The notes below the pieces were generated by a model that was given only the letters and a program-made list of their open reading frames with translations, made no database searches and was not told the DNA's origin. From a virus (lineage: Duplodnaviria; Heunggongvirae; Uroviricota; Caudoviricetes), in the IMG/VR virus record IMGVR_UViG_3300015188_000003, positions 1 through 40,896 of that record: 40,896 nt of DNA; one strand, given 5' to 3'. Position 1 is the first letter of the stretch. The number at the start of each line of letters is the position of its first letter. This document shows positions 1 through 26,933 of the stretch, one piece after another. The translations under genes were made by a program, and so were the position numbers.

Positions 1-141
1 CTGTTGTTAGCGGCCCCCGACGCCTCCATCGGGGTGGGTTCGAATGTGATAGTTTCGCCGGTTTCCAGTGTCGCCGTAAGTTCCTGTAGCCCACGAACAA
101 GATAGTACGTCTTTGACAACAACGGGTGGCTGATTTGCAAC
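1..141. repeat. 141-bp terminal direct repeat, identical to 40756..40896 (circular-closure overlap)
   Basis: First and last 141 nt of the window are the same sequence. Confidence 0.95.
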
Positions 142-17685: not shown

Positions 17686-18184
17686 CGGACACCACCTTAA
17701 TTGTTACTTCGCTGATTGGCTCGTCGCGTACTTCTTCGGCGACAACTGTTTTATTCAGGCCCAGTTTCGCGGCAGCAAACGTAGCAGAGATGCCCGCGGC
17801 CCCCGTTTCAGTGAAGTATGCCTCTTCCAGCGCCTGTGCTGTCTCCCAGGCTTCTGCAAATGCGGGAATCTCACGCAGCCAAAGCTTAATAATCGGGATA
17901 GTGACTCCGATGTGTAAGGCGAAGCGGGCCAGTGACGGTGGTTTATCCTGAATCAGCGGGCGTTCGTCACCCTTAGACGTTGGCACAAGCTCCCACGACG
18001 TGCGGTCGAAGAACTCGATTAACGCGTCACAGTAGTCCGGGTCCCACAATGCCGCAGAATTACGGGATGATTGATAAAGGCTCTGTTTACCGCGCGGTCG
18101 TTTACGGCGACGGTTTGCGCTAACAGCTTCTTCATGTGCAGCTTGTACCACCTCTGGCGATGGCTGCTTAAGTTTCAGCTTCAT
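17675..18184 (-). CDS. terminase small subunit
   Basis: Basic N-terminal region, immediately upstream of and overlapping large terminase; ATG (MKLKLK) with AAGGGGA SD; track start 18223 is GTG. Confidence 0.7.
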   Translation of the reverse strand: MKLKLKQPSPEVVQAAHEEAVSANRRRKRPRGKQSLYQSSRNSAALWDPDYCDALIEFFDRTSWELVPTSKGDERPLIQDKPPSLARFALHIGVTIPIIKLWLREIPAFAEAWETAQALEEAYFTETGAAGISATFAAAKLGLNKTVVAEEVRDEPISEVTIKVVSGER

Positions 18185-18280
18185 AGAATCCCCTTGCATA
18201 TGCGTCTGACCATCAGAGCGCACCAGACGCGCCCTACGCGTCTAAATGGATTATATAAGGGGATTGGGCGGGATGTACAG

Positions 18281-18301
18281 AAAAGCCCTCCGTAGAGGGC
18301 T
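18281..18301 (-). terminator. terminator separating the early microgene string from the packaging operon (AGCCCTC-CGTA-GAGGGCT + U-tract)
   Basis: GC hairpin followed on - strand by TTTCTGT. Confidence 0.5.
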
Positions 18302-18311
18302 TGTGGGTTGG

Positions 18312-18467
18312 TTATTCTGTTATATCGCCGCCGTCTACCAGTGCGATTGGTATTCTCACTTCACCGTTGAATGTTTCGGCATACCAGAACTTTTCACACT
18401 GCGTTACGCTGAAAACATCGAGTTCTGACGTAGCCCCTGTTTTCCAGTAGATAGTTAACTTTTTCAT
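18312..18467 (-). CDS. small protein (51 aa), not on ORF track
   Basis: ATGA overlap with upstream gene; AGGAG SD. Confidence 0.4.
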   Translation of the reverse strand: MKKLTIYWKTGATSELDVFSVTQCEKFWYAETFNGEVRIPIALVDGGDITE

Positions 18468-18700
18468 TCTCCACTCTCCTCTTTAGCAATACGTTGCTCA
18501 GTTTTAGTGATACCACGGCGCGTGAATAACACCGGGCTAGTCTTAACGTGCGTCATCAGACGATTGTTATAAATTACGTGGCGCTCACAATCAACGTCTT
18601 TACTGTACTTAGCAATCGTCATTTCGTTGATACCGGTTTGTCGGCATGTCTCCGCCATCGTACCAAATTCTTTAATCAGGTTAGGAATGCTGGTAATCAT
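18464..18700 (-). CDS. hypothetical early protein
   Basis: Track ORF 18464..18724; likely ATG at 18700 (MITSIPNL) via ATGA coupling to upstream ORF. Confidence 0.6.
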   Translation of the reverse strand: MITSIPNLIKEFGTMAETCRQTGINEMTIAKYSKDVDCERHVIYNNRLMTHVKTSPVLFTRRGITKTEQRIAKEESGE

Positions 18701-18867
18701 CCTAAGAAATTCCTCGTTGTCCACATCGCATTCGGATATTTGTTATCGCGGTCCTGCACCACGGCGACCATGTTACCACGTTGCACCAGGCAGAAGTGAC
18801 GCTGTTGCTCGCCGTTGTAACGGCGCCAGATTGCTTCTTCGATTGCTGCGTTGATGTCGCTGAACAT
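18697..18867 (-). CDS. small protein (56 aa), not on ORF track
   Basis: Coupled by ATGA downstream and TAATG upstream. Confidence 0.35.
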   Translation of the reverse strand: MFSDINAAIEEAIWRRYNGEQQRHFCLVQRGNMVAVVQDRDNKYPNAMWTTRNFLG

Positions 18868-18950
18868 TAGTATCTACCCCACAGAAAACCGACCAATAGC
18901 CCAATGAAGTAACTAAGACCAACCAGACTTATAACAACCTCAAGACTCAT
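18867..18950 (-). CDS. hydrophobic 27-aa peptide (single TM helix), not on ORF track
   Basis: MSLEVVISLVGLSYFIGLLVGFLWGRY; stop overlaps next ATG. Confidence 0.3.
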   Translation of the reverse strand: MSLEVVISLVGLSYFIGLLVGFLWGRY

Positions 18951-18954
18951 GCTC

Positions 18955-19152
18955 TCACCCCACTATCTCATCGCCAAGCCACGCCGTTTCTCGTATATCG
19001 TCTACTACACACGCAGCGTGCTCGCGGCTAATCGCAAAAATGTAGAAACTGAACTTCTTCCCATCGGCGTCGATGTGGTTAACCGAGTAAGGTTTCCACA
19101 GGACGCCATCGATAACTACCGGCTCAGGCGTGCTCATCTGGCGCCTCAACAA
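18955..19152 (-). CDS. hypothetical early protein (65 aa)
   Basis: Track ORF in tightly packed leftward string. Confidence 0.55.
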   Translation of the reverse strand: MLRRQMSTPEPVVIDGVLWKPYSVNHIDADGKKFSFYIFAISREHAACVVDDIRETAWLGDEIVG

Positions 19153-19432
19153 GACAACTCAGCATGTCAGTAATCTCCGTCTCAAGCCGTTTTCCTAACG
19201 CCGATTTAGTGCAGTGTTCGGCCCACTCCCCGGATTGCAACAATCCAATCATATTTTCTATGTCAGACGCGATGGCTTGTAGCTCTTTAAACGCCTCTAG
19301 AAGTTCTTTATACGCCTCCAGTTGAAACTCACCGTTAATTGACAGTTGCCCGCCTAACGTCTGTTTCTCCGACTCAAGCACCATAATACGGCGCTCGAGC
19401 GATGCAATTGTGATTTTAGGCATTGGTGTCAC
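19124..19432 (-). CDS. hypothetical early protein, coiled-coil (102 aa)
   Basis: Track ORF. Confidence 0.6.
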   Translation of the reverse strand: MTPMPKITIASLERRIMVLESEKQTLGGQLSINGEFQLEAYKELLEAFKELQAIASDIENMIGLLQSGEWAEHCTKSALGKRLETEITDMLSCLVEAPDEHA

Positions 19433-19601
19433 CTTTGTTCAGGTTGAAGCGGTTAATCAGTTCGCGGCGCGTCTCATAAAGCGACTCCACCATTTGCTCG
19501 GCTACCGCGATTTTATTATTCAGGACGCACATCACGTGGCTAATGTCTACGCCGCCGTTAACGGCCTCTACCATCATCTTTTCATATTCACGGTCAGTCA
19601 T
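19416..19601 (-). CDS. hypothetical early protein (61 aa)
   Basis: Track ORF. Confidence 0.55.
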   Translation of the reverse strand: MTDREYEKMMVEAVNGGVDISHVMCVLNNKIAVAEQMVESLYETRRELINRFNLNKGDTNA

Positions 19602-19755
19602 TTTTACGCTCTCCCCACATGCGGTTGAGATACTTGTTCTTGTCCGGCCCAGGGAAACTGTTACGTTTCATCAGTTCCTCGCGTGTCGGGAACGGGGTGT
19701 GACTCACCTTACGGCCTACTCGTAATGGTTGGCTTACTTGACCTTGTTCGCTCAT
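19594..19755 (-). CDS. small protein (53 aa), not on ORF track
   Basis: ATGA overlap with upstream gene and GGGAGG SD 7 nt upstream. Confidence 0.45.
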   Translation of the reverse strand: MSEQGQVSQPLRVGRKVSHTPFPTREELMKRNSFPGPDKNKYLNRMWGERKND

Positions 19756-19949
19756 TCTACAACCTCCCATTTAACGCCGTGGAAACCATCACCGTCATCG
19801 TTACCAAAGTCTATGAAAATATGGCAGTCGTCGTCGGAGTCTATATAACCGAAACCAGTAGCTGTCGGGTTGTATACATCATACACTTTACCCTCTGTGA
19901 CATAGTCAAGGGCGGCTAACCAGAGAATTTTAGCGGCTTTAACTTTCAT
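19752..19949 (-). CDS. hypothetical acidic early protein (65 aa)
   Basis: Track ORF; ATGA overlaps both sides. Confidence 0.6.
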   Translation of the reverse strand: MKVKAAKILWLAALDYVTEGKVYDVYNPTATGFGYIDSDDDCHIFIDFGNDDGDGFHGVKWEVVE

Positions 19950-20194
19950 TTCTTCTCTCCTGCATAAGCTGCTTTCAGTGTCTGCATAGCAGCGAACCAG
20001 AACGCATCCGCAGGGATATTGCGGCTCAGGTTACTAACGGCGATACGCGCCATCAGTTGTGCGTCTTTGAATGCTTCGGTATCTGTGATTTTCATTGGAA
20101 ATTTACGCATAGCAACCGGGTCATTACCCATAGTCCATGCGATACATTTGGCTTCAAGTTCCTCGGTTATTGCGATTGTCTGTACGTTACTCAT
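19946..20194 (-). CDS. hypothetical early protein (82 aa)
   Basis: Track ORF, first gene after promoter 20228..20256. Confidence 0.6.
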   Translation of the reverse strand: MSNVQTIAITEELEAKCIAWTMGNDPVAMRKFPMKITDTEAFKDAQLMARIAVSNLSRNIPADAFWFAAMQTLKAAYAGEKK

Positions 20195-20227
20195 CTTCTC
20201 TACTCCGTTCTCGTTGTCGATGGAGTA

Positions 20228-20256
20228 AATATAATAGGGTCGTAGGTAATAGTCAA
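20228..20256 (-). promoter_or_regulatory. sigma70-like promoter TTGACT-N17-TATATT (leftward)
   Basis: Immediately downstream of terminator 20277..20310; shares ATAATAGGG with the operator family. Confidence 0.4.
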
Positions 20257-20276
20257 CTAGTCATTGCAGAAAATAG

Positions 20277-20310
20277 ATAAAAAAAATCCCGGCTGGGTCA
20301 GGGCCGGGAT
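20277..20310 (-). terminator. rho-independent terminator after lysis cassette (ATCCCGGC-loop-GCCGGGAT + 9-nt U-run)
   Basis: Perfect 8-bp stem followed on - strand by T9. Confidence 0.8.
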
Positions 20311-20374
20311 AAAACTGGAGAGCAGAGGTATGGAACAGGAGGTGATTTAAGTATCGTCGGATTAGTCTCAGGTG

Positions 20375-20860
20375 TCAACCTTTCACCGCGCGCCCGATAG
20401 CCTCTGCCTCTTGCCACGGTTTACCGTCGAACAGCGCCAGACGACCGGCAGTACGGCGGCGCAGACCAAGTAACGGTCTGCCGTTCTGGTTGATGAACAG
20501 TGTCAGCTTAGCCCGCAGCGTTGCAATATCACCAGAACGCAGTGCCTTACCCGTGCCGGTAGTAGCAGCAATCACACCAGCACCTGCGTTGTATACCAGG
20601 TCGCACACTGCATCGAACTGTGCCTGTGTCAATGAATGGTGTGCTGCTGCGTCAACCGCAGCTACGGCCTTAGCCATATCACGATTCAGTAACAGGAGGC
20701 CTTGTCCCGGGGTGATGGTCTTGCCTGGCGTTACGTCTGGCCCATAATGACCGTACCCAATAGTCAGGTACTTCTCATTTGGCGTAGCACGATACGCAGT
20801 TCCGCGGAATCCCTCGAACGCGGCGGTGAATTTGATGCCATTGTTGCTAATGTTTCTCAT
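20375..20860 (-). CDS. endolysin, GH24 lysozyme-like
   Basis: FEGFRGTAYR...TIGYGH and GL..RR...LF motifs typical of phage lysozymes. Confidence 0.8.
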   Translation of the reverse strand: MRNISNNGIKFTAAFEGFRGTAYRATPNEKYLTIGYGHYGPDVTPGKTITPGQGLLLLNRDMAKAVAAVDAAAHHSLTQAQFDAVCDLVYNAGAGVIAATTGTGKALRSGDIATLRAKLTLFINQNGRPLLGLRRRTAGRLALFDGKPWQEAEAIGRAVKG

Positions 20861-20950
20861 AAAGCACCTTCCCGTAATTTATGGTTCGCGAAAACTCCGG
20901 TATCGGGGTCGTAGTGTAAAACCTCGCGCAGCTTATCTGCGGTAAGTCCA

Positions 20951-21223
20951 TTATCTGAAATATTTCGAGACACGCTTATGTCCTCCGTATGACAGCCACG
21001 CCTGACGAATCTGGCGCAGCGCAACTAATGTGATTAATGTCTCAGGCAGCGTCGGAGACATGCTGCCCTGTAACAGGTGGATACATCCTGCGGCGCAGAC
21101 AATAGCAGTCAGGATATAGAGCACCCGGCCAAATAGCCCGTCGTCAACGCTGGGATGATACACATTAAACAGCGATGTGCCTCCGATTGCCAGCATACCG
21201 CAGAACCAGAATAACTCATTCAT
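20951..21223 (-). CDS. membrane protein with 2 predicted TMDs (second holin/antiholin-like)
   Basis: ATG (MNELFWF) overlaps holin stop as ATGAATGA; two hydrophobic helices; track ORF 20951..21403 has a spurious N-extension. Confidence 0.5.
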   Translation of the reverse strand: MNELFWFCGMLAIGGTSLFNVYHPSVDDGLFGRVLYILTAIVCAAGCIHLLQGSMSPTLPETLITLVALRQIRQAWLSYGGHKRVSKYFR

Positions 21224-21524
21224 CCGGGCCTCCTCGACGTGCGATGTATTCTCCGGCGACGATACCGGACAGACGGGAATAGATAGGCATCCAGAGAATA
21301 GCGATAATGAAGCCCAGGCCTGCGATTTCACGGTCGCCCGTGATTCCAAACCATTGAGCTGCGAGAGGTGCGCCAAATACGGCGCAAGTGAAGCCAGTTG
21401 CAATAAAGCAGAAGCCGTCGATAGGGCCGGAAATAGCGGACTTATGTTGCCTTAGTCCGATTACCCCTCCGGCTAGTGCGGCAGCGAGAAGCCACCCCGT
21501 CACAGTTTCAGTAAATTTATCCAA
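21216..21524 (-). CDS. holin (3 predicted TMDs)
   Basis: TTG start with GGAGG SD; three hydrophobic segments and charged C-terminus; adjacent to endolysin. Confidence 0.65.
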   Translation of the reverse strand: MDKFTETVTGWLLAAALAGGVIGLRQHKSAISGPIDGFCFIATGFTCAVFGAPLAAQWFGITGDREIAGLGFIIAILWMPIYSRLSGIVAGEYIARRGGPDE

Positions 21525-21583
21525 GATGAATCCTCCAGGTGCGTATTAAGTATGCAGTAACTGGAGGATAGCACGGGTAGGAA

Positions 21584-22024
21584 TTATCCTAATAGTTGTT
21601 TGGTAATAATCTTGCCGCCGGTGTCAGGGTCGAACTTCGATGCAACTGCTACACCACCTTGCGCCGAATACCCACATTCCATAGCCGCTAGGGCATAAGG
21701 GGCGCCTGAACCAACGGCGGAAAAGCTGTCCGCAATCTGAATAACCAAACTAAGAGCACAATCCCAAGATTTATAGAACTCCACCCTACACAACGTTTCG
21801 ATGTCTTTAACCCACACCAAGGCAGAGAAATCAAAATCGTAGTGCTTAGGCACTAAAATACTATCGTCCTCCACTAAAAGGATACCAACCCCTGCATCGC
21901 CAGCCGCCCCAATAACAACAAATTCGTTCTCGTATATCTTTGTGTCTGTGTTGTAACAGTTACTCCCGCACACAACACGGGTATCACAGGCCATTGTCTT
22001 TCCGTCAAACGCGATAGTAGTCAT
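21584..22024 (-). CDS. HslV/proteasome beta-like Ntn-hydrolase homologue (146 aa, truncated relative to HslV)
   Basis: Starts MTTIAF (Thr right after Met as in HslV MTTIVSV); VIGAAGDAG and VGSGAPYALAA resemble HslV AGFAGG and IGSGGPYAQAA. Confidence 0.6.
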   Translation of the reverse strand: MTTIAFDGKTMACDTRVVCGSNCYNTDTKIYENEFVVIGAAGDAGVGILLVEDDSILVPKHYDFDFSALVWVKDIETLCRVEFYKSWDCALSLVIQIADSFSAVGSGAPYALAAMECGYSAQGGVAVASKFDPDTGGKIITKQLLG

Positions 22025-22314
22025 TTATGTCTCCAGATGTATTGTCGTCTCTGTGGTTTCGTCGGAATATCATCGTACCCCAGCGATTTCCAGTAATTAA
22101 ATAGCCGGTTCGCGATAGCTGCGCGTTCCTTTGTTTTAAACTCACCGAGATTCACGGCCTTTCCGTTCTGGAATCCACAGGCGCGGATAGCTTTACGCCG
22201 TTCTTGTATCTCTGGGTACAGCACGTTACGGCGACGCTTGTGTATACGTGTCTTCGCTCTCGGTGACAGCGGCGCAAGGCCGCTTCGTTTCAGGATGTCA
22301 GTTGCTAACGACAT
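22021..22314 (-). CDS. small basic protein (97 aa) coupled to HslV-like gene
   Basis: Track ORF 22021..22359; likely ATG (MSLATDILKR) at 22314; ATGA overlap with downstream gene. Confidence 0.55.
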   Translation of the reverse strand: MSLATDILKRSGLAPLSPRAKTRIHKRRRNVLYPEIQERRKAIRACGFQNGKAVNLGEFKTKERAAIANRLFNYWKSLGYDDIPTKPQRRQYIWRHK

Positions 22315-22583
22315 CACTCCACCCCCTCCACATGTGTAACCGACCCGCAGTTCGCGCACTCGACGTAATCAGGGTACTGGTCTTTGTATTTCTGTAGCTC
22401 GGCGTTTACTTCTGCCAGTCTCGACACAAGCCCTTCTATTTCCTTGTCGGCGTCGGCTAGACGTTCCTGGTAATAGTCGTCCAGTTCCTTATAGCTGTCG
22501 TACTCTACATAATCGCCGTATGCGTACTCAGCCATCTCAGGCTCTGGCAGGCCCCACGCTTTTACCTCATATCTCTGTACCAT
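22314..22583 (-). CDS. hypothetical acidic early protein (89 aa)
   Basis: First gene after promoter 22613..22641. Confidence 0.6.
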   Translation of the reverse strand: MVQRYEVKAWGLPEPEMAEYAYGDYVEYDSYKELDDYYQERLADADKEIEGLVSRLAEVNAELQKYKDQYPDYVECANCGSVTHVEGVE

Positions 22584-22612
22584 ATTATCTCTCCTCTCGT
22601 TTGTGTAAATGA

Positions 22613-22641
22613 ATAGTAGCCTATTCTATCTTAGTGTGCAA
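22613..22641 (-). promoter_or_regulatory. sigma70-like promoter TTGCAC-N17-TACTAT with operator 18-mer (22610..22627), leftward
   Basis: Reverse complement matches the 13046..13074 block. Confidence 0.45.
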
Positions 22642-22758
22642 GTAAATTTTATTGGTGTTTGTATTGTTGCATCTCCTGCAATAGCCGCTTCGATTGTTGC
22701 GTTTGGTGAAATAGAACAAAAATGAGAAAAATGATACGCTGCTGTGTAGCAGCGTAGG

Positions 22759-22998
22759 TCACTCAGTAAAATCCCAAACTATTGTTACAGTATAACATAA
22801 CACTTCTGGTGGCTCGGGTAACGGCATCCAGTGCGTCACGTACTTATCGTAGTTATTCCAGAAAGGCTTTCTCCCGTCATCAGGAACGATGTAATAATCG
22901 TGTTGAACTGCGTTATTTAACGTTTCATACACCAGGAACTCTTTATCCGTATACCCATTACCTGGCAGCATCTCACTACACTTAATCCACTCGCCCAT
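22759..22998 (-). CDS. DUF551-like phage protein
   Basis: MGEWIKCSEMLPG... and THWMPLPEPPE resemble the DUF551 signature. Confidence 0.55.
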   Translation of the reverse strand: MGEWIKCSEMLPGNGYTDKEFLVYETLNNAVQHDYYIVPDDGRKPFWNNYDKYVTHWMPLPEPPEVLCYTVTIVWDFTE

Positions 22999-23001
22999 AA
23001 A

Positions 23002-23145
23002 TCACCCCTTATTCATCACAGCTTGCGCACCAGCTTTCCACGCCCGCCACGCAAGACGCGTCTTAACGTTCAGGTACTCTTTCTTCGAACCCTTGTTAAC
23101 CGGCAGACCCTCGACTACGGCCCATCGTTCGAATGCTTCTCTCAT
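23002..23145 (-). CDS. small protein (47 aa), not on ORF track
   Basis: GGAGG SD 8 nt upstream; stop 3 nt before next ATG. Confidence 0.4.
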   Translation of the reverse strand: MREAFERWAVVEGLPVNKGSKKEYLNVKTRLAWRAWKAGAQAVMNKG

Positions 23146-23148
23146 AAC

Positions 23149-23349
23149 TTAGTCCTCCAGAACTTCGCATTCACTTGCATACACAACTACATACCCCGCG
23201 TCACGTTCAATAATGAACATAGCGGAACCGGCGTGTGTAACCTCAAACTCATCTCCTACTGCAACGCCCCAGTAACTAAGCGGCAAATCGTCACCATCGC
23301 GCGGGTCCACATAATCAATATCAGTTATACGAATTCTTATTAACGGCAA
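23149..23349 (-). CDS. hypothetical acidic early protein (66 aa)
   Basis: Track ORF. Confidence 0.55.
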   Translation of the reverse strand: MPLIRIRITDIDYVDPRDGDDLPLSYWGVAVGDEFEVTHAGSAMFIIERDAGYVVVYASECEVLED

Positions 23350-23397
23350 CCTCCCTCAGAGTCGTCGGCACTGGCGCCATGATTCGGCGCCGTGGGT

Positions 23398-23616
23398 TTA
23401 TTTAAAGTAGATAGCGAATTTCTTGTAACCCGCAGGCTCATTACGAAGCCCCTTACCGATAGCGAAACGTTGTACGTTGTTAAAATCGTTTCCATCCATA
23501 CCGTCGGTGCCGAACGTAAAGAAGTTGCGTTTGTTCCCGATAATTACGCGCTCTGAAATATCGATGCCGTAAACTTGTTTGATTGCGGAAACTACGCTTG
23601 CGGTCGCTTTGTTCAT
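23398..23616 (-). CDS. hypothetical early protein (72 aa)
   Basis: First gene downstream of promoter 23651..23679. Confidence 0.6.
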   Translation of the reverse strand: MNKATASVVSAIKQVYGIDISERVIIGNKRNFFTFGTDGMDGNDFNNVQRFAIGKGLRNEPAGYKKFAIYFK

Positions 23617-23650
23617 TTCTAAATTCCTTATGTCTCGTTTCGATAAGTGA

Positions 23651-23679
23651 ATAGTAACCTATTATGTTGGGGTGTGCAA
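23651..23679 (-). promoter_or_regulatory. sigma70-like promoter TTGCAC-N17-TACTAT with operator 18-mer (23648..23665), leftward
   Basis: Reverse complement near-identical to 13046..13077. Confidence 0.45.
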
Positions 23680-23714
23680 GAGAATAGTTACGTTGCCGTT
23701 GTGATTCTTTCGTT

Positions 23715-23777
23715 TCTTAAAAGAGTACGCAACGCAGTGGGTGGGCGTTAGCCCACCCCAGCGGAGTGAAGTACTCT
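23715..23777 (-). terminator. two-tier hairpin (outer AGAGTAC/GTACTCT, inner GGGTGGGC-GTTA-GCCCACCC) with U-rich tail; possible 3' end of transcript from element B
   Basis: Inverted repeats read directly; weak U-tract after outer stem on - strand. Confidence 0.35.
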
Positions 23778-23857
23778 CTACCTTGCTCACGGCAACTATA
23801 GAAACTTTTAATTATCAGTGACTTGGATATTTAGGCGGGATTAACAATAGACTTTGA

Positions 23858-23988
23858 CCCTTCCGAAAGCGTCAGCGGAACTACACTCAAGTGCCTAATG
23901 GCACGCGTTGCGTTCCCTGCCGCTCCGCGGTCGCTTGCGATATCTCACAAGCTCAGTGAAGCTTAGCATATTTTCAAGTAAAAGTCAA
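23858..23988 (-). repeat. conserved ~130-bp intergenic element, copy B (candidate sRNA/leader)
   Basis: Aligned with 12850..12979; shared blocks include CCCTTCCGAA.GCGTCAGCG.AACTACACTCA, CCGCGGTCGCTTG and TCACAAGCTCAG...AAAAGTCAA. Confidence 0.6.
23960..23988 (-). promoter_or_regulatory. candidate leftward promoter TTGACT-N17-TAAGCT inside element B
   Basis: Same boxes and spacing as in copy A. Confidence 0.35.
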
Positions 23989-24035
23989 TACCAGTAGCAT
24001 CTTTTGTATTTTAGTAACTTTGTGTGGTGTTTTGG

Positions 24036-24064
24036 TTGCTTTTACATTCACGCTATCCTATACT
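24036..24064 (+). promoter_or_regulatory. candidate rightward promoter TTGCTT-N17-TATACT for the replication block
   Basis: Only good -35/-10 pair upstream of the first + gene. Confidence 0.4.
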
Positions 24065-24095
24065 CGGTTTCACCAAACAAACAGGAGATATAAAA

Positions 24096-24278
24096 ATGCA
24101 GCATTACATGACACAGAATGAAGTAGCTGAACGTATAGGGGTGACACGTCAGACAATTAATAACTGGTTGCGCAGTGGTAAATTCCCGGATTGTTGTATT
24201 AAGGTTATGGGTCGCCGTTTACCAGGAACATTTGACCGTAATAAAGTTGAAGCATGGATTAAGGAGAACGTGAAATGA
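24096..24278 (+). CDS. small HTH DNA-binding protein (AlpA/excisionase-type fold, regulator)
   Basis: MTQNEVAERIGVTRQTINNWL helix-turn-helix; ATG with AGGAG SD (track start 24024 is GTG). Confidence 0.7.
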   Translation: MQHYMTQNEVAERIGVTRQTINNWLRSGKFPDCCIKVMGRRLPGTFDRNKVEAWIKENVK

Positions 24279-24487
24279 TTGGACGTATGGGTTGTTACTT
24301 TGAAAACTGTAAAGTTAAATACTGGTTTAAGTTTGCGTCGGAAATTACTGACAGCGGATTCTATGTGGAAATATGTAAGCCTAATAATTTGTCGGAACCT
24401 ACGCGCATTATTAAGATGTCAGCAGACGTGTTAAGTAAATGCCGCTTCTATGATTCCGAGCACGCGTGGTTTTCTGGTTGTAAATAA
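24275..24487 (+). CDS. Cys-rich hypothetical protein (70 aa)
   Basis: ATGA overlap with upstream gene; AT-rich. Confidence 0.6.
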   Translation: MIGRMGCYFENCKVKYWFKFASEITDSGFYVEICKPNNLSEPTRIIKMSADVLSKCRFYDSEHAWFSGCK

Positions 24488-24555
24488 AAGAAACCCCAAC
24501 GCCAGAACGTCGGGGCTAAAGTACAAATCATCAAAGTAAGCATAAGGATTATACA

Positions 24556-24684
24556 ATGACAAAGTTAATAGTTCCACAGCTACGCCGCCAGAAACACGGC
24601 GCTGACTTCTTCGCACCGGTAAAGATGAACCGCGCAATGCGCCGTATGCAGGAAGCCTTAGAACGTGCGGAGAAAAAGAAATGA
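24556..24684 (+). CDS. small basic protein (42 aa), not on ORF track
   Basis: AAGGA SD; stop overlaps primase ATG (ATGA). Confidence 0.4.
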   Translation: MTKLIVPQLRRQKHGADFFAPVKMNRAMRRMQEALERAEKKK

Positions 24685-26933
24685 ATATTGTTTTTGCAAC
24701 GCTGCGTAACACATTCGATAAAAACCCTGTAGCGCGTGAGATGCCGCTCGAGCAGTTTGTGGAGTATGTCTGCGATACATCGAAGCGTTTATCCGTGGAC
24801 CCGTCATGGACTAAGGAAGAGTACGACGCGGCCAAGATTAAACAGAAAGCTATTGCGCCTGTTGGCGGTCGCCGTAAGAACGCTATTCTGGAAGACAGTG
24901 TGGTTAAGTTCGATTTTGACCATCTCAACCGTACTCAGTACCGCGACCTTACCCGCAAATTCAAGAACGCACCGTTCTTCAATATTCTGCATACAACGGC
25001 ATCGCATCAGCATGTGTGTAAAAACGGTGATTACGCCTTCCGCGTTCTCGTACCGGCTCGCACGCCGTTTAACTCTAACGACGCGTGGATGGTCCAACGG
25101 GCTATTTGTGCAGAGTTAGAAATAGATGAAGCCTTGCGTGACCACTGCACGGAAGACGGCAACCGCCTTATCTATCTGCCACATAGAGAGTCAAAGATAA
25201 CGGTTACAGAAGGGCGCGTTATCCGTGCCGAGCGGTACATCAAGAAAGCCGAAGAGATGGGGTTGAGTAAACGTGAAGTTAAGACACTTGCCGCCGATGA
25301 GTATGGGCTTAACGCTGATATAGCGCATTTCTGCGAAGCCGAGCTTGGCCTTGACGCTTTATCTTCCGGGCGCGGGTACGAAGTCCCATGTCCTAACGAA
25401 CATCTGCATACAGGCAAAGGCTCCACAAGCATCATGCTTGATGGTAAAGAAGTGCGCTTTGTGTGCCAGCATACAAACAACGGCGCTTGCACCGAGCTTA
25501 ACCGCCGACAGCATTTGGCCCTGCGTATGTGCGGCCTGCCAGACGAGCTTAACGTAGACAAGCAACCTATCAGTATTAACAGCATTCGTGCGGCTCTGCC
25601 TGATTTACCGGATGAAGAGATTGAAGAACTGCACCGCACAGAGAACGAGGAGCCTGTAACTTGCACGCTGGAAGACCTTGAAGAAGAGGACGAGTTACCA
25701 GAACCGGTAAAGGCTGATTTCGTCGTTGAGGGGTACATGCCGTCGGATTGTATCTGGGATATTGTCGGGGAATCCGGCACGTACAAATCATTCTATACGC
25801 TGGGGATGATGTACCTGAGCGCCGCCGGGTACCGGTTTGCGGGGGCTGACACCCAACGTTGCCACCATTTCTATATTGACGGCGAGGGTGGTGCAGCTAC
25901 ACGAACACGTATTGATGCACTCGCGGCTAAATATGGCGAGGAAGGTAAAGATTATGTACATGTCATCGATATGGGCGAAATACTCGCTACGCATGGTGAT
26001 AAAAAAATTCCAGCTCTAATCCGCAGGATGCGCGAAACCGCAGGGGATGAACCTATTGGCATGGTTGCCTTCGACACCCTTAACCAGACGCTGGCCCTGA
26101 CGATTGATAAGTTCGACGAGAACAGTTCATCAACGGCAATCGGTATGGGTAAAGTTATCGCCATCCTGAAAGAAGTGCGCGATGCAACTAAAGCCGCTGT
26201 CGGTGTCGTTCACCATACTCCGAAGGGCGGAAAGAAAGCCCGCGGCAGTGGAGCATTGTATGCGGGTGTCGACGTGGAACTGACAATCGAACGCGCTACC
26301 GACCGTCAGATAAACGTATACCACTCTAAATTTAAGCACGGTCCGCAACAGAAGACGGTTGGCATGGTACTGGAGTCTGTACAGTTCCGTGAAGCACCGC
26401 CGCCGAAAGAGTACCGCGCGGTTGAGTTCCTCGGTAGCACAGAGGAATACGGCACAATAGTAAACCTCGACCTGCCTGAGCCGCACAAGGCGCTTGTATT
26501 GATGCCGTGGGGCTTCGAGCCATTCAAGACCGACGAGGAGAAAGAGAGGGAAGAAGGGTTAACTAACGAAGGTAAACAAAATGTACGTAAAACCATAGAG
26601 AACGCCGTCAACAGTTCCGAGGCCACGATACTCGCGGCGTTTGAACTGGCGGAGGGGACCTACAACGGCAACGAGGGCATCACGGTATCCGCAGCGAATA
26701 AGCTCGCGCAGTCTGACCCCAACGCAAAGGCGTTTAACTCCAAAGAAGCCATAGAACGCGGGAAGATTAAGAAAATGGTTGAGGCTGGGTATCTTGTTCC
26801 GGGTACTGACGAAAACAATCAGATAATCACAGGCCGTTACAGGCTGAATACCCGGATAACGGATAACAAGATTCCGAAGACACTATACGAACCGAATGAA
26901 ATGCTGGTGGTGACCGAGGATGATTTGGAATAA
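24681..26933 (+). CDS. replicative primase-helicase (primase-like N-terminal region, RecA/DnaB-like ATPase C-terminal region)
   Basis: 750 aa; Walker A-like VGESGTYKS; KFDFDH acidic motif; first large gene of replication block. Confidence 0.65.
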   Translation: MNIVFATLRNTFDKNPVAREMPLEQFVEYVCDTSKRLSVDPSWTKEEYDAAKIKQKAIAPVGGRRKNAILEDSVVKFDFDHLNRTQYRDLTRKFKNAPFFNILHTTASHQHVCKNGDYAFRVLVPARTPFNSNDAWMVQRAICAELEIDEALRDHCTEDGNRLIYLPHRESKITVTEGRVIRAERYIKKAEEMGLSKREVKTLAADEYGLNADIAHFCEAELGLDALSSGRGYEVPCPNEHLHTGKGSTSIMLDGKEVRFVCQHTNNGACTELNRRQHLALRMCGLPDELNVDKQPISINSIRAALPDLPDEEIEELHRTENEEPVTCTLEDLEEEDELPEPVKADFVVEGYMPSDCIWDIVGESGTYKSFYTLGMMYLSAAGYRFAGADTQRCHHFYIDGEGGAATRTRIDALAAKYGEEGKDYVHVIDMGEILATHGDKKIPALIRRMRETAGDEPIGMVAFDTLNQTLALTIDKFDENSSSTAIGMGKVIAILKEVRDATKAAVGVVHHTPKGGKKARGSGALYAGVDVELTIERATDRQINVYHSKFKHGPQQKTVGMVLESVQFREAPPPKEYRAVEFLGSTEEYGTIVNLDLPEPHKALVLMPWGFEPFKTDEEKEREEGLTNEGKQNVRKTIENAVNSSEATILAAFELAEGTYNGNEGITVSAANKLAQSDPNAKAFNSKEAIERGKIKKMVEAGYLVPGTDENNQIITGRYRLNTRITDNKIPKTLYEPNEMLVVTEDDLE

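What the first reader, a model, noticed from the sequence alone, without database searches (positions are those of the whole stretch)
21584..22314. Truncated HslV/proteasome-like Ntn-hydrolase coupled to a small basic protein
The 146-aa ORF starts MTTIAF, with Thr directly after Met as in bacterial HslV, and shares the glycine-rich core segments (VIGAAGDAG, VGSGAPYALAA) but is about 30 residues shorter. It is translationally coupled (ATGA overlap) to a 97-aa basic protein and lies in the early region next to the lysis genes. A phage-borne HslV-like peptidase without HslU could hijack host HslU, act as a decoy, or have a different hydrolase role.
Basis: partly seen in the sequence, partly recalled or inferred. 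Interest (0 to 1): 0.75.

Follow-up and report, generated by a model that had tools for sequence, protein, structure and literature searches.

The report
Known phage mini-proteasome homolog (PPH)
The 146-residue gene is a genuine but already described phage-borne relative of the proteasome/HslV protease (the "PPH" family); its role in infection is still unknown, and the small basic gene in front of it is only a lineage-specific neighbour.

Summary
On the minus strand, a 146-aa ORF (21584-22024) starts MTT and overlaps a 97-aa, pI 11.2 ORF (22021-22314) by ATGA. The window is a Kagunavirus-like coliphage. The ORF is 100% identical in protein to phage Bas73's gene annotated "peptidase HslV family protein", and it hits PHROG 1040 at E 1e-33.

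It is not a truncated HslV. It belongs to a large family (at least 1,194 clusters at 50% identity) of proteins about 135-155 aa long. A family profile matches proteasome beta5, BPH and HslV at E about 1e-10. The equivalents of Thr1, Asp17, Lys33, Gly47, Ser129 and Asp166 are invariant or at least 90% conserved. An AlphaFold model (pLDDT 94) has the proteasome-beta fold without helix H2. [quoted passage not shown] 2021.

The link to the 97-aa gene is not functional. Bas71 and Bas74 keep that gene at 94-95% identity but lack PPH through a clean indel. The gene is absent from PPH loci outside Guernseyvirinae. 4-nt overlaps occur in 20 of 74 same-strand gene pairs.

No unfoldase is encoded. The part of HslV that holds two cited HslU-tail pocket residues is missing. 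The most likely role is a stand-alone, accessory Thr-peptidase with unknown substrates. Already known; modest interest.

The parts
21584..22024 (-). [quoted passage not shown] Predicted active-site set: T2 (Thr1 after Met removal), D14 (Asp17), K29 (Lys33), G42 (Gly47), G105-S106-G107 (Gly128-Ser129-Gly130), D132 (Asp166), T135 (Ser169).
   Evidence: ORF. PHROG 1040 at E 1.2e-33. Protein 100% identical to Bas73 'peptidase HslV family protein'. Family conservation. Profile against PDB. AF2 model, pLDDT 94. Foldseek against HslV, BPH and beta5. dN/dS 0.15.
22031..22034 (-). GGAG Shine-Dalgarno-like motif 6 nt upstream of the PPH ATG, embedded in the last codons of the 97-aa ORF (TGG AGA CAT AAA TGA).
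   Evidence: Read directly from the sequence. Relatives without PPH have TGG CGT CAT AAA TAA at the same place, with no GGAG.
22021..22314 (-). 97-aa very basic protein (pI 11.2), PHROG 9632, function unknown. Syntenic neighbour of PPH in Guernseyvirinae only. Predicted beta-hairpin (residues 43-59) plus helix (62-77), possibly AP2-like DNA-binding (weak evidence).
   Evidence: Retained without PPH in Bas71 and Bas74.
22314..22583 (-). Upstream small ORF (89 aa as listed; annotated as 67 aa in Bas73). It is joined to the 97-aa ORF by a TGATG overlap. Context only.
21216..21524 (-). Holin (PHROG 2359), first gene of the lysis cassette, 59 nt downstream of PPH. Context only.
20375..20860 (-). 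Endolysin (Phage_lysozyme PF00959). Context only.

Best explanation
[quoted passage not shown] 2021). PPH is a compact proteasome-beta/HslV-superfamily N-terminal-nucleophile hydrolase carried by tailed phages and prophages.

Shown here:
- Translation starts at the ATG at 22024, which has its own GGAG motif upstream.
- The protein carries the complete proteasome-type active-site constellation: T2, D14, K29, G42, S106, D132 and T135.
- It is predicted with high confidence to adopt the beta-sandwich fold. Helices H1 (short), H3 and H4 are present, and H2 is absent.
- The gene is under purifying selection.
- It is a dispensable accessory cassette with no conserved partner gene.

Inferred:
- Host methionine aminopeptidase removes Met1 and exposes Thr as the nucleophile, as in propeptide-less E. 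coli HslV.
- Subunits assemble into ring-type homo-oligomers through the retained H3/H4 ring-ring helices.
- The particle acts as a stand-alone, ATPase-independent peptidase, like the 'uncapped' role proposed for BPH. It would act on unfolded or specific host or phage polypeptides during the stage of infection just before lysis and packaging genes are expressed.
- The 97-aa basic protein upstream is an independent, possibly DNA-binding gene. It merely shares the operon.
For: Identity:
- PHROG 1040 at E 1.2e-33.
- 100% protein identity to the annotated Bas73 gene.
- 1,194 representative clusters at E<=1e-3. Of the 146 listed representatives that are 125-210 aa long, 140 begin M-T.
- T2, G105 and G107 are invariant, and D14, K29, G42, S106 and D132 are at least 90% conserved, in both 132 representatives and 113 further homologs.
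- The family profile matches beta5, BPH and HslV at about 1e-10, with T2 aligned to Thr1, D14 to Asp17, K29 to Lys33, G42 to Gly47, S106 to Ser129 and D132 to Asp166.
- hhalign against E. coli HslV gives 97.3% probability.
- The AF2 model has pLDDT 94 and pTM 0.88, with a single short helix (46-51) between the strands and H3/H4 at 108-116 and 121-131.
- Foldseek finds HslV, BPH and beta5 at TM about 0.7.
- The published PPH definition is about 140 residues, lacks H2, has no propeptide, and occurs in Caudovirales and prophages (PMC8665760).

Functional gene: median dN/dS is 0.15 over 62 pairs.

Accessory and partner-less:
- There is a clean PPH indel in Bas71 and Bas74.
- No shared neighbour family appears in 43 diverse viral loci, and no AAA+ gene appears among those neighbours. 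None is annotated in the Bas73 genome either.

Stand-alone action rather than HslU dependence:
- The HslV segment of about residues 60-85 has no counterpart. It includes Ala79 and Lys80, which PMC6429459 names as HslU-tail contacts.
- H3/H4 are the main beta-beta ring contacts, and they carry no insertion here (PMC8665760).
Against: - No biochemical or genetic data exist for any PPH. Activity, oligomeric state and substrates are all inferred.
- Loss of H2 could equally mean a non-ring quaternary structure. Connectase, which lacks H1 and H2, is a monomeric ligase.
- All cultured-phage hosts seen here are Proteobacteria that possess HslU, so host distribution does not exclude HslU use.
- Direct sequence comparison with the published PPH representative (WP_042125023.1) could not be made.
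Confidence: 0.55

Rival explanations
1. PPH hijacks host HslU. PPH rings dock onto the host AAA+ unfoldase HslU (or another host unfoldase) and form a hybrid ATP-dependent protease that redirects host proteolysis.
For: - PPH is a homolog of HslV.
- It has no propeptide and starts MTT, like E. coli HslV.
- The phage encodes no unfoldase of its own.
- All cultured hosts seen are Proteobacteria, which have HslU.
Against: - Helix H2 and the end of H1 are missing. In HslV this region lies on the H1/H2 side, which I recall faces HslU (established knowledge, not tested here), and it holds HslU-tail pocket residues Ala79 and Lys80 (PMC6429459).
- The protein scores 11.6 bits against a cut-off of 157.75 for the HslV equivalog model.
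- D132 matches proteasome Asp166. E. coli HslV has Cys at that position. The active-site periphery is therefore not HslV-like.
Confidence: 0.12
2. PPH is a non-proteolytic Ntn enzyme. It uses Thr1 for a different reaction, for example transpeptidation or ligation as in connectase, or hydrolysis of a non-protein amide.
For: - Within the proteasome-like superfamily, connectase is a monomeric ligase, not a protease. It also lacks the first helix pair (PMC8665760).
- PPH has lost H2.
- No PPH has a known substrate.
Against: - PPH keeps the full proteasome protease set, including Asp166 and Ser169 equivalents and Gly47.
- It lacks the connectase-type two-helix insertion.
- Its nearest structural and profile neighbours are proteases.
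Confidence: 0.13
3. PPH and the 97-aa basic protein form a two-gene functional module, for example as regulator, substrate, adaptor or inhibitor, as suggested by their translational coupling.
For: - The genes overlap by ATGA, and the PPH Shine-Dalgarno motif lies inside the 97-aa ORF.
- The 97-aa gene sits directly upstream of PPH in 15 of 17 Guernseyvirinae loci.
- The two proteins carry opposite charges, pI 11.2 and 4.3.
Against: - Bas71 and Bas74 keep the 97-aa gene at 94-95% identity without PPH.
- No homolog of the 97-aa protein lies next to PPH in any of the non-Guernseyvirinae loci analysed.
- The 97-aa family is confined to these phages, with 42 clusters, against at least 1,194 clusters for PPH.
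- 4-nt overlaps are common in this genome.
Confidence: 0.05
4. PPH is a catalytically irrelevant decoy or poison subunit that titrates HslU or co-assembles with host HslV to block host proteolysis.
For: Phages are known to inhibit host proteases. T4 PinA and T7 Gp4.5 against Lon are examples recalled from established knowledge, not tested here. PPH is homologous to HslV.
Against: - Invariance of the nucleophile and conservation of the acid/base residues over more than 240 diverse homologs, and low dN/dS, indicate selection for catalysis.
- The HslU-contact region is missing.
Confidence: 0.04
5. The ORF is a decaying, truncated remnant of a captured host hslV gene, that is, a pseudogene.
For: It is 30 aa shorter than HslV, and it is absent from many sister phages.
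Against: - The same length and architecture hold across at least 1,194 clusters.
- dN/dS is 0.15.
- The gene has its own Shine-Dalgarno motif.
- The fold is predicted with high confidence.
- The family is distinct from HslV.
Confidence: 0.01

Closest known systems
[quoted passage not shown]
   Same: - Length about 140-150 aa.
- Thr directly after Met, with no propeptide.
- Catalytic Thr1/Asp17/Lys33 and Gly47 equivalents.
- H2 is missing.
- No S12/H5 elements.
- Encoded by tailed phages and prophages.
- Nearest relatives are BPH and HslV.
   Different: Nothing essential differs. The Guernseyvirinae subgroup is a divergent branch, about 30-40% identical to typical PPH. It lacks the family's usual Trp in H1: column 53 is at least 90% Trp in the family and Asp here. 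Direct clustering with the published representative was not possible.
HslV (ClpQ), peptidase subunit of HslUV (TIGR03692 / NF003964)
   Same: Same superfamily fold. Thr1 directly after Met. Asp17, Lys33 and the Gly-Ser-Gly motif are shared. hhalign probability is 97.3% and Foldseek E is 1e-7.
   Different: - 30 aa shorter, with no H2 and no counterpart for HslV residues of about 60-85, which contain HslU-tail pocket residues.
- Far below the equivalog cut-offs: 11.6 against 157.75 bits.
- No adjacent hslU gene.
- Has the Asp166 equivalent where E. coli HslV has Cys.
BPH (Betaproteobacteria proteasome homolog; PDB 5OVS/5OVT)
   Same: It is the best single-sequence PDB hit and a top structural hit. 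It belongs to the same 'group I' of proteasome-like proteins. It has no known unfoldase partner, and an uncapped-proteasome-like role has been proposed for it (PMC8665760).
   Different: BPH is about 200 aa with H1 and H2 and a long acidic pore loop. It is chromosomal in bacteria and forms heptameric double rings. The oligomeric state of PPH is unknown.
20S proteasome beta subunit (PF00227; for example beta5)
   Same: It is the best profile hit, at E 4.8e-11, aligned from Thr1 through Asp166/Ser169/Gly170. PPH has the same complete active-site constellation.
   Different: There is no propeptide and no alpha-subunit partner. PPH is about 55 residues shorter and lacks H2. This protein is below the Pfam gathering score, at 15.1 against 22.4 bits.

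Membership tests
PPH (Fuchs et al. 2021) | Proteasome-like beta-sheet core with the catalytic triad Thr1/Asp17/Lys33 and the oxyanion Gly47 | tested here: met
   T2, D14, K29 and G42 align to these residues in the profile-PDB alignment. They are invariant or at least 90% conserved in the family. The fold is confirmed by AF2 and Foldseek.
PPH (Fuchs et al. 2021) | Compact size of about 140 residues, without a propeptide | tested here: met
   The ORF is 146 aa and starts MTT. Homologs are about 135-155 aa, and 140 of 146 start M-T.
PPH (Fuchs et al. 2021) | Lacks helix H2 (shared only with RPC) and lacks the C-terminal S12/H5 elements | tested here: met
   The AF2 secondary structure has a single short helix (46-51) followed by a loop before strand 66-72. 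H3 is at 108-116 and H4 at 121-131, and the last strand is 139-143. The gap relative to HslV covers residues of about 60-85. There is no C-terminal extension, so the protein is not RPC.
PPH (Fuchs et al. 2021) | Encoded by tailed phages, or by prophage regions of bacteria | tested here: met
   The window is a Kagunavirus-like phage. Homologs occur in 340 phage records, in 352 IMG/VR stretches and in a Variovorax prophage. One chromosomal, non-phage context was seen in Falsiroseomonas.
PPH (Fuchs et al. 2021) | Sequence clustering with the published PPH cluster (representative WP_042125023.1) | not testable with these tools
It was not among the accessions returned.
HslV (HslUV peptidase subunit) | Scores above the NCBIfam equivalog cut-offs (TIGR03692, NF003964) | tested here: not met
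   11.6 bits against 157.75, and 11.3 bits against 137.
HslV (HslUV peptidase subunit) | H1/H2 helices that form the inter-subunit pocket for the HslU C-terminal tail (for example Ala79, Lys80) | tested here: not met
   The region has no counterpart in PPH. Pocket residues are taken from PMC6429459.
HslV (HslUV peptidase subunit) | Cognate hslU gene in the same operon or genome | tested here: not met
   No AAA+ unfoldase is annotated in the 81 genes of Bas73. None appears next to PPH in 43 diverse viral loci.
HslV (HslUV peptidase subunit) | N-terminal Thr nucleophile exposed by Met removal | tested here: met
   The protein starts M-T-T, and the ORF has no alternative upstream start. Actual Met removal was not tested.
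20S proteasome beta subunit (PF00227) | Passes the Pfam gathering threshold | tested here: not met
   15.1 bits against 22.4. At E<=0.01, 70 of 132 family representatives match PF00227. The superfamily relationship therefore holds, but family membership does not.
20S proteasome beta subunit (PF00227) | Extended active site: Ser129, Asp166, Ser169 | tested here: met
   S106, D132 and T135 align to these positions. S106 and D132 are at least 90% conserved.
Any self-compartmentalising Thr protease | Ring or double-ring oligomer and measurable peptidase activity | not testable with these tools
   Only monomer prediction is available, and there is no biochemistry.
AP2/ERF-like DNA-binding domain (considered for the 97-aa neighbour) | Three-stranded sheet packed on a helix; significant profile or fold match | tested here: inconclusive
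   There is no Pfam hit and no PDB profile hit. AF2 gives pLDDT 68, with a hairpin at 43-59 plus a helix at 62-77. AP2 structures recur only at non-significant E values of 1.2 to 6.7.

The most novel reading that the evidence does not exclude
PPH is a catalytically active, unfoldase-independent viral 'mini-proteasome'. Phages would deploy it as an exchangeable host-takeover or counter-defence factor that destroys particular host regulators or immune proteins shortly before lysis and packaging. That would make it the first functionally defined viral member of the proteasome family. A more exotic variant is that it still plugs into a host AAA+ unfoldase through a non-canonical interface.
Probability: 0.25. 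Interest if true: 0.65.

Novelty: already known. Interest (0 to 1): 0.27.

Why it matters
Nothing new is added at the level of identification. The gene is annotated in GenBank for a phage with the identical protein, and the family was named and described in 2021.

The open matter is biological. No PPH has been characterised, although the family is very widespread: at least 1,194 clusters at 50% identity, found in hundreds of cultured phages.

This scan adds practical leverage:
- The Kagunavirus members of the public BASEL collection include natural PPH-plus (Bas73) and PPH-minus (Bas71, Bas74) relatives. They differ at this locus by a clean cassette indel.
- The conserved neighbour can be discounted as a partner.
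- The canonical HslU docking region is absent.

Together these points make direct tests of stand-alone peptidase activity, and a search for substrates, the sensible next experiments.

Tried and rejected
- Single-sequence Pfam, NCBIfam and PDB searches gave only sub-threshold proteasome/HslV hits. A family profile was needed.
- PADLOC found no defence-system model for either protein.
- A search for a conserved partner found none. I clustered all-vs-all BLAST hits for ORFs from 86 loci and scanned the immediate neighbours in non-Guernseyvirinae loci against PHROGs. Downstream genes are often terminase or lysis genes, and upstream genes are heterogeneous.
- The 169-aa ORFs upstream of PPH in L002 and L004 looked similar in size but are unrelated.
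- The 106-aa ORF that overlaps PPH in the Variovorax prophage is unrelated to the 97-aa protein.
- The promoter and terminator scan of 18000-25000 found no more sites than shuffled sequence.
- The 97-aa protein gave no significant Pfam, PDB-profile or Foldseek match, so the AP2-like idea stays a weak lead.
- BASEL phenotypes do not track PPH. By the text, Bas70-73 plate on regular K-12, and that group includes both PPH-plus (Bas73) and PPH-minus (Bas71) phages. No defence-sensitivity difference could be tied to PPH.
- The K1B4 transcriptome paper does not mention the gene.
- A look-up of NCBI accessions did not recover the published PPH representative.
- Rfam and tRNA scans of the window were empty.
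Full report
**1. The observation**

Both ORFs lie on the minus strand.
- The 146-aa ORF runs 22024 to 21584 and begins MTTIAFDGKTMACDTR. No other in-frame start lies upstream within the ORF.
- The upstream ORF is best read from the ATG at 22314, giving 97 aa. PHROG 9632 has 97 positions and matches residues 1-97. The protein has pI 11.2, with 24 K/R against 7 D/E.
- The stop of the 97-aa ORF and the start of the 146-aa ORF share ATGA. A GGAG motif sits 6 nt before the ATG.
- Downstream, after 59 nt, come two holins and a lysozyme-type endolysin.

The description is accurate.

**2. Where the window comes from**

Megablast finds 232 phage records. The best are Escherichia Kagunavirus-like phages: 590B, GertrudWoker_Bas73 and NTEC3. 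The 146-aa protein is 100% identical to Bas73_0068, deposited as "peptidase HslV family protein". Other records call the gene "ATP-dependent protease" or "protease".

In Bas73 the gene lies in an operon that starts at a divergent control region next to the replication genes. The operon runs through about a dozen small unknown genes, then the 97-aa gene, this gene and the lysis cassette. More small genes, the terminase and the structural genes follow. "Early region" is therefore plausible from gene order, but it is not shown. A consensus scan for promoters and terminators found no more sites than shuffled sequence.

**3. What the protein is**

Single-sequence searches are weak.
- Pfam Proteasome scores 15.1 bits against a cut-off of 22.4.
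- The NCBIfam HslV models score 11-12 bits against cut-offs of 137-158.
- The best PDB hit is BPH at E 0.11.

The family evidence is strong.
- PHROG 1040 matches at E 1.2e-33.
- An exhaustive HMMER scan of 1.84 billion representatives found 1,194 clusters at E<=1e-3. Almost all are 135-155 aa and align from residue 1. Of the 146 listed representatives that are 125-210 aa long, 140 begin Met-Thr.
- In an alignment of 132 representatives, T2, G42, G105, G107 and A111 are invariant. D14, K29, S106, D132 and G136 are at least 90% conserved.
- An independent set of 113 homologs gives the same picture.
- A profile of the family hits proteasome beta5 (E 4.8e-11), BPH (7.6e-11) and HslV (8.5e-11).
- That alignment pairs T2 with Thr1, D14 with Asp17, K29 with Lys33 and G42 with Gly47. 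It also pairs G105-S106-G107 with Gly128-Ser129-Gly130, D132 with Asp166 and T135 with Ser169.
- hhalign against E. coli HslV gives 97.3% probability. My typed HslV sequence was verified against PDB 5ji3.

The structure prediction agrees.
- AlphaFold2 with a 113-sequence alignment gives pLDDT 94 and pTM 0.88.
- The model has the proteasome-beta strand order. There is only one short helix (46-51) where H1 and H2 normally sit. H3 is at 108-116 and H4 at 121-131.
- Foldseek returns HslV (6kui, 1m4y), BPH (5ovt), ClpQ and many beta5 chains at E 1e-7 to 1e-5, with TM about 0.7.
- Forty-two viral models in BFVD share the fold at E<=1e-3.

**4. It is an already described family**

Fuchs et al. [quoted passage not shown]
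- It has about 140 residues.
- It occurs in Caudovirales phages and in bacterial loci flanked by phage genes.
- It belongs to group I, with BPH and HslV.
- It has no propeptide.
- PPH and RPC are the only proteasome-like proteins besides connectase that lack part of the first helix pair; they lack H2.
- It has no S12/H5 elements.

Every one of these features was tested here and met. Only direct clustering with their representative sequence could not be done. I found no later paper on PPH in the library, and no solved structure is closer than BPH, HslV or beta5.

So "truncated HslV" is not the right description. The short length is the family's normal architecture. The gene is under purifying selection within Guernseyvirinae, with median dN/dS 0.15 over 62 pairs.

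**5. The neighbour**

In 15 of 17 Guernseyvirinae loci a homolog of the 97-aa gene lies immediately upstream of PPH. None of the non-Guernseyvirinae loci analysed has such a gene. A database search finds only 42 clusters of the 97-aa protein, all close relatives.

Bas71 and Bas74 carry the 97-aa gene at 94-95% identity directly in front of the holin, with no PPH. The DNA alignment shows a clean cassette indel of about 420 nt.
- The PPH-less phages still contain the last about 13 nt of the PPH gene (TTATTAGGATAA).
- They read TGG CGT CAT AAA TAA where the window reads TGG AGA CAT AAA TGA.
- The GGAG motif and the ATGA overlap therefore exist only when PPH is present.

This has two consequences. 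PPH is dispensable for growth on E. coli K-12 derivatives. The 97-aa protein does not depend on PPH. By name counts, only about 30 Escherichia phage records carry PPH by tblastn. By contrast, 102 Escherichia records share DNA across this region. Most Salmonella Jerseyvirus-type records carry PPH.

Overlaps of 4 nt occur in 20 of 74 same-strand gene pairs of Bas73. The ATGA overlap is therefore ordinary packing.

The 97-aa protein itself has no Pfam or PDB match. Its model (pLDDT 68) shows a beta-hairpin plus helix in residues 43-77. AP2/ERF DNA-binding domains recur among the Foldseek hits, but only at non-significant E values of 1.2 to 6.7. A small DNA-binding protein is a reasonable guess and nothing more.

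**6. Context of PPH elsewhere**

- In a Variovorax prophage and a metagenomic phage, PPH sits at the end of a nin-like block (DUF1367, DUF1064, HNH, RecA-dependent nuclease, YbcO) before the late genes.
- In 43 diverse IMG/VR loci the gene downstream is often a small or large terminase, or a lysis gene. Upstream genes are heterogeneous: methyltransferase, exonuclease, NinB, HNH and others.
- No family recurs as a partner, and no AAA+ ATPase appears.
- Bas73 has no annotated unfoldase.
- One non-phage chromosomal context was seen, in Falsiroseomonas. [quoted passage not shown]
- PADLOC has no model for either protein.

**7. How it most likely works**

Shown:
- The protein has a complete proteasome-type active site behind an N-terminal Thr.
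- The fold is predicted with high confidence.
- The gene is under purifying selection.
- It has accessory status.
- It has no conserved partner.

Inferred from established knowledge of Ntn hydrolases and HslV:
- Met1 is removed by methionine aminopeptidase, because Thr is a permissive second residue.
- Thr1 then acts as the nucleophile, with Lys33 and Asp17 equivalents.

Inferred from structure:
- H3 and H4, the main beta-beta ring contacts (PMC8665760), are intact and carry no insertion. A ring or double-ring assembly is therefore plausible.
- The segment that has no counterpart, HslV residues of about 60-85, includes H2. It also includes Ala79 and Lys80, which PMC6429459 lists among contacts of the HslU C-terminal tail.
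- Canonical HslU docking is therefore unlikely.
- D132 matches proteasome Asp166, where E. coli HslV has Cys. The enzyme is closer to proteasome or BPH in its active-site shell than to HslV.

My best reading is a stand-alone, unfoldase-independent Thr peptidase, analogous to what has been proposed for BPH. Phages would use it as an exchangeable accessory factor. Substrates are unknown.

Confidence in the identity is about 0.9. Confidence in the stand-alone-peptidase mechanism is about 0.4-0.5.

**8. Rivals**

| Rival | Confidence | Main point |
|---|---|---|
| Hijack of host HslU | 0.12 | All observed hosts have HslU, but the docking region is gone |
| Non-protease Ntn chemistry, such as connectase-like ligation | 0.13 | Loss of a helix of the first pair is reminiscent, but the protease residue set is complete and there is no connectase insertion |
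| Two-gene module with the 97-aa protein | 0.05 | Contradicted by Bas71 and Bas74 and by the distribution of the two families |
| Non-catalytic decoy | 0.04 | Contradicted by the invariant nucleophile |
| Pseudogene | 0.01 | Contradicted by family size, dN/dS and the confident fold |

**9. Verdict**

The protein belongs to a family that is already named, described and routinely annotated. The proposed coupling is a lineage-specific accident of gene order.

Novelty is "already known". Interest is modest. The only real open question is what PPH does, and that question predates this scan. The useful by-products are the natural PPH-plus and PPH-minus pairs in the BASEL collection and the argument against canonical HslU docking.

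Noticed in passing
window 21584-22040, compared with L087 (Bas71) 1580-1750 and L088 (Bas74) 1690-1860: The PPH gene is a clean cassette indel of about 420 nt between sister Kagunaviruses. PPH-less phages keep the last about 13 nt of the gene (TTATTAGGATAA). They use CGT instead of AGA for the penultimate Arg of the 97-aa ORF, so the GGAG motif and the ATGA overlap exist only when PPH is present.
   Followed up: yes
window 22021-22314 (-): In the 97-aa basic protein, residues 43-77 are predicted as a beta-hairpin plus helix. The sequence GKAVNLGEFKTKERAAIANRLF looks AP2-like. AP2/ERF domain structures recur among the Foldseek hits, but only at non-significant E values (1.2-6.7).
   Followed up: partly
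window 22735-22756 (-) and 22582-22609 (-): A terminator-like hairpin with a T-run is followed by a promoter-like TTTACA-16-TAATAT just upstream of the 89-aa / 97-aa / PPH / lysis gene string. This could mark the start of a transcription unit. Such sites were no more frequent than in shuffled sequence.
   Followed up: no
L002 9244-10086 (-), Variovorax sp. PMC12 prophage: A TIR-domain gene (PF10137, CAP12-PCTIR_TIR) lies on the opposite strand, one gene away from PPH. It sits between the early region and the terminase/portal genes. It is probably a prophage-borne defence moron in the same hot-spot.
   Followed up: no
L006 8001-8450, Falsiroseomonas sp. CW058: A PPH homolog sits alone in an ordinary chromosomal neighbourhood, between a glycosyltransferase and rpsA/cmk/aroA, with no phage genes within 8 kb. 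This adds to the few non-phage contexts mentioned by Fuchs et al.
   Followed up: no
phage records (Caulobacter phages C2, J4, CcrPW, CcrBL9; Phapecoctavirus-like 150-kb coliphages): PPH-like genes also occur in giant Caulobacter phages. In two of them the gene lies inside the terminal repeat, next to the terminase. Partial matches to the C-terminal 36% of the query occur in many 150-kb E. coli myoviruses annotated 'peptidase HslV family'. These may belong to a different proteasome-like family.
   Followed up: no
window 52-65 of the PPH protein (nt about 21830-21871): The loop that replaces H2 in the Guernseyvirinae PPH is acidic (E52 D53 D54 ... D63 D65). It also lacks the Trp that is at least 90% conserved in H1 of other PPH proteins. 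This recalls the acidic pore loop described for BPH, but I did not analyse it further.
   Followed up: no
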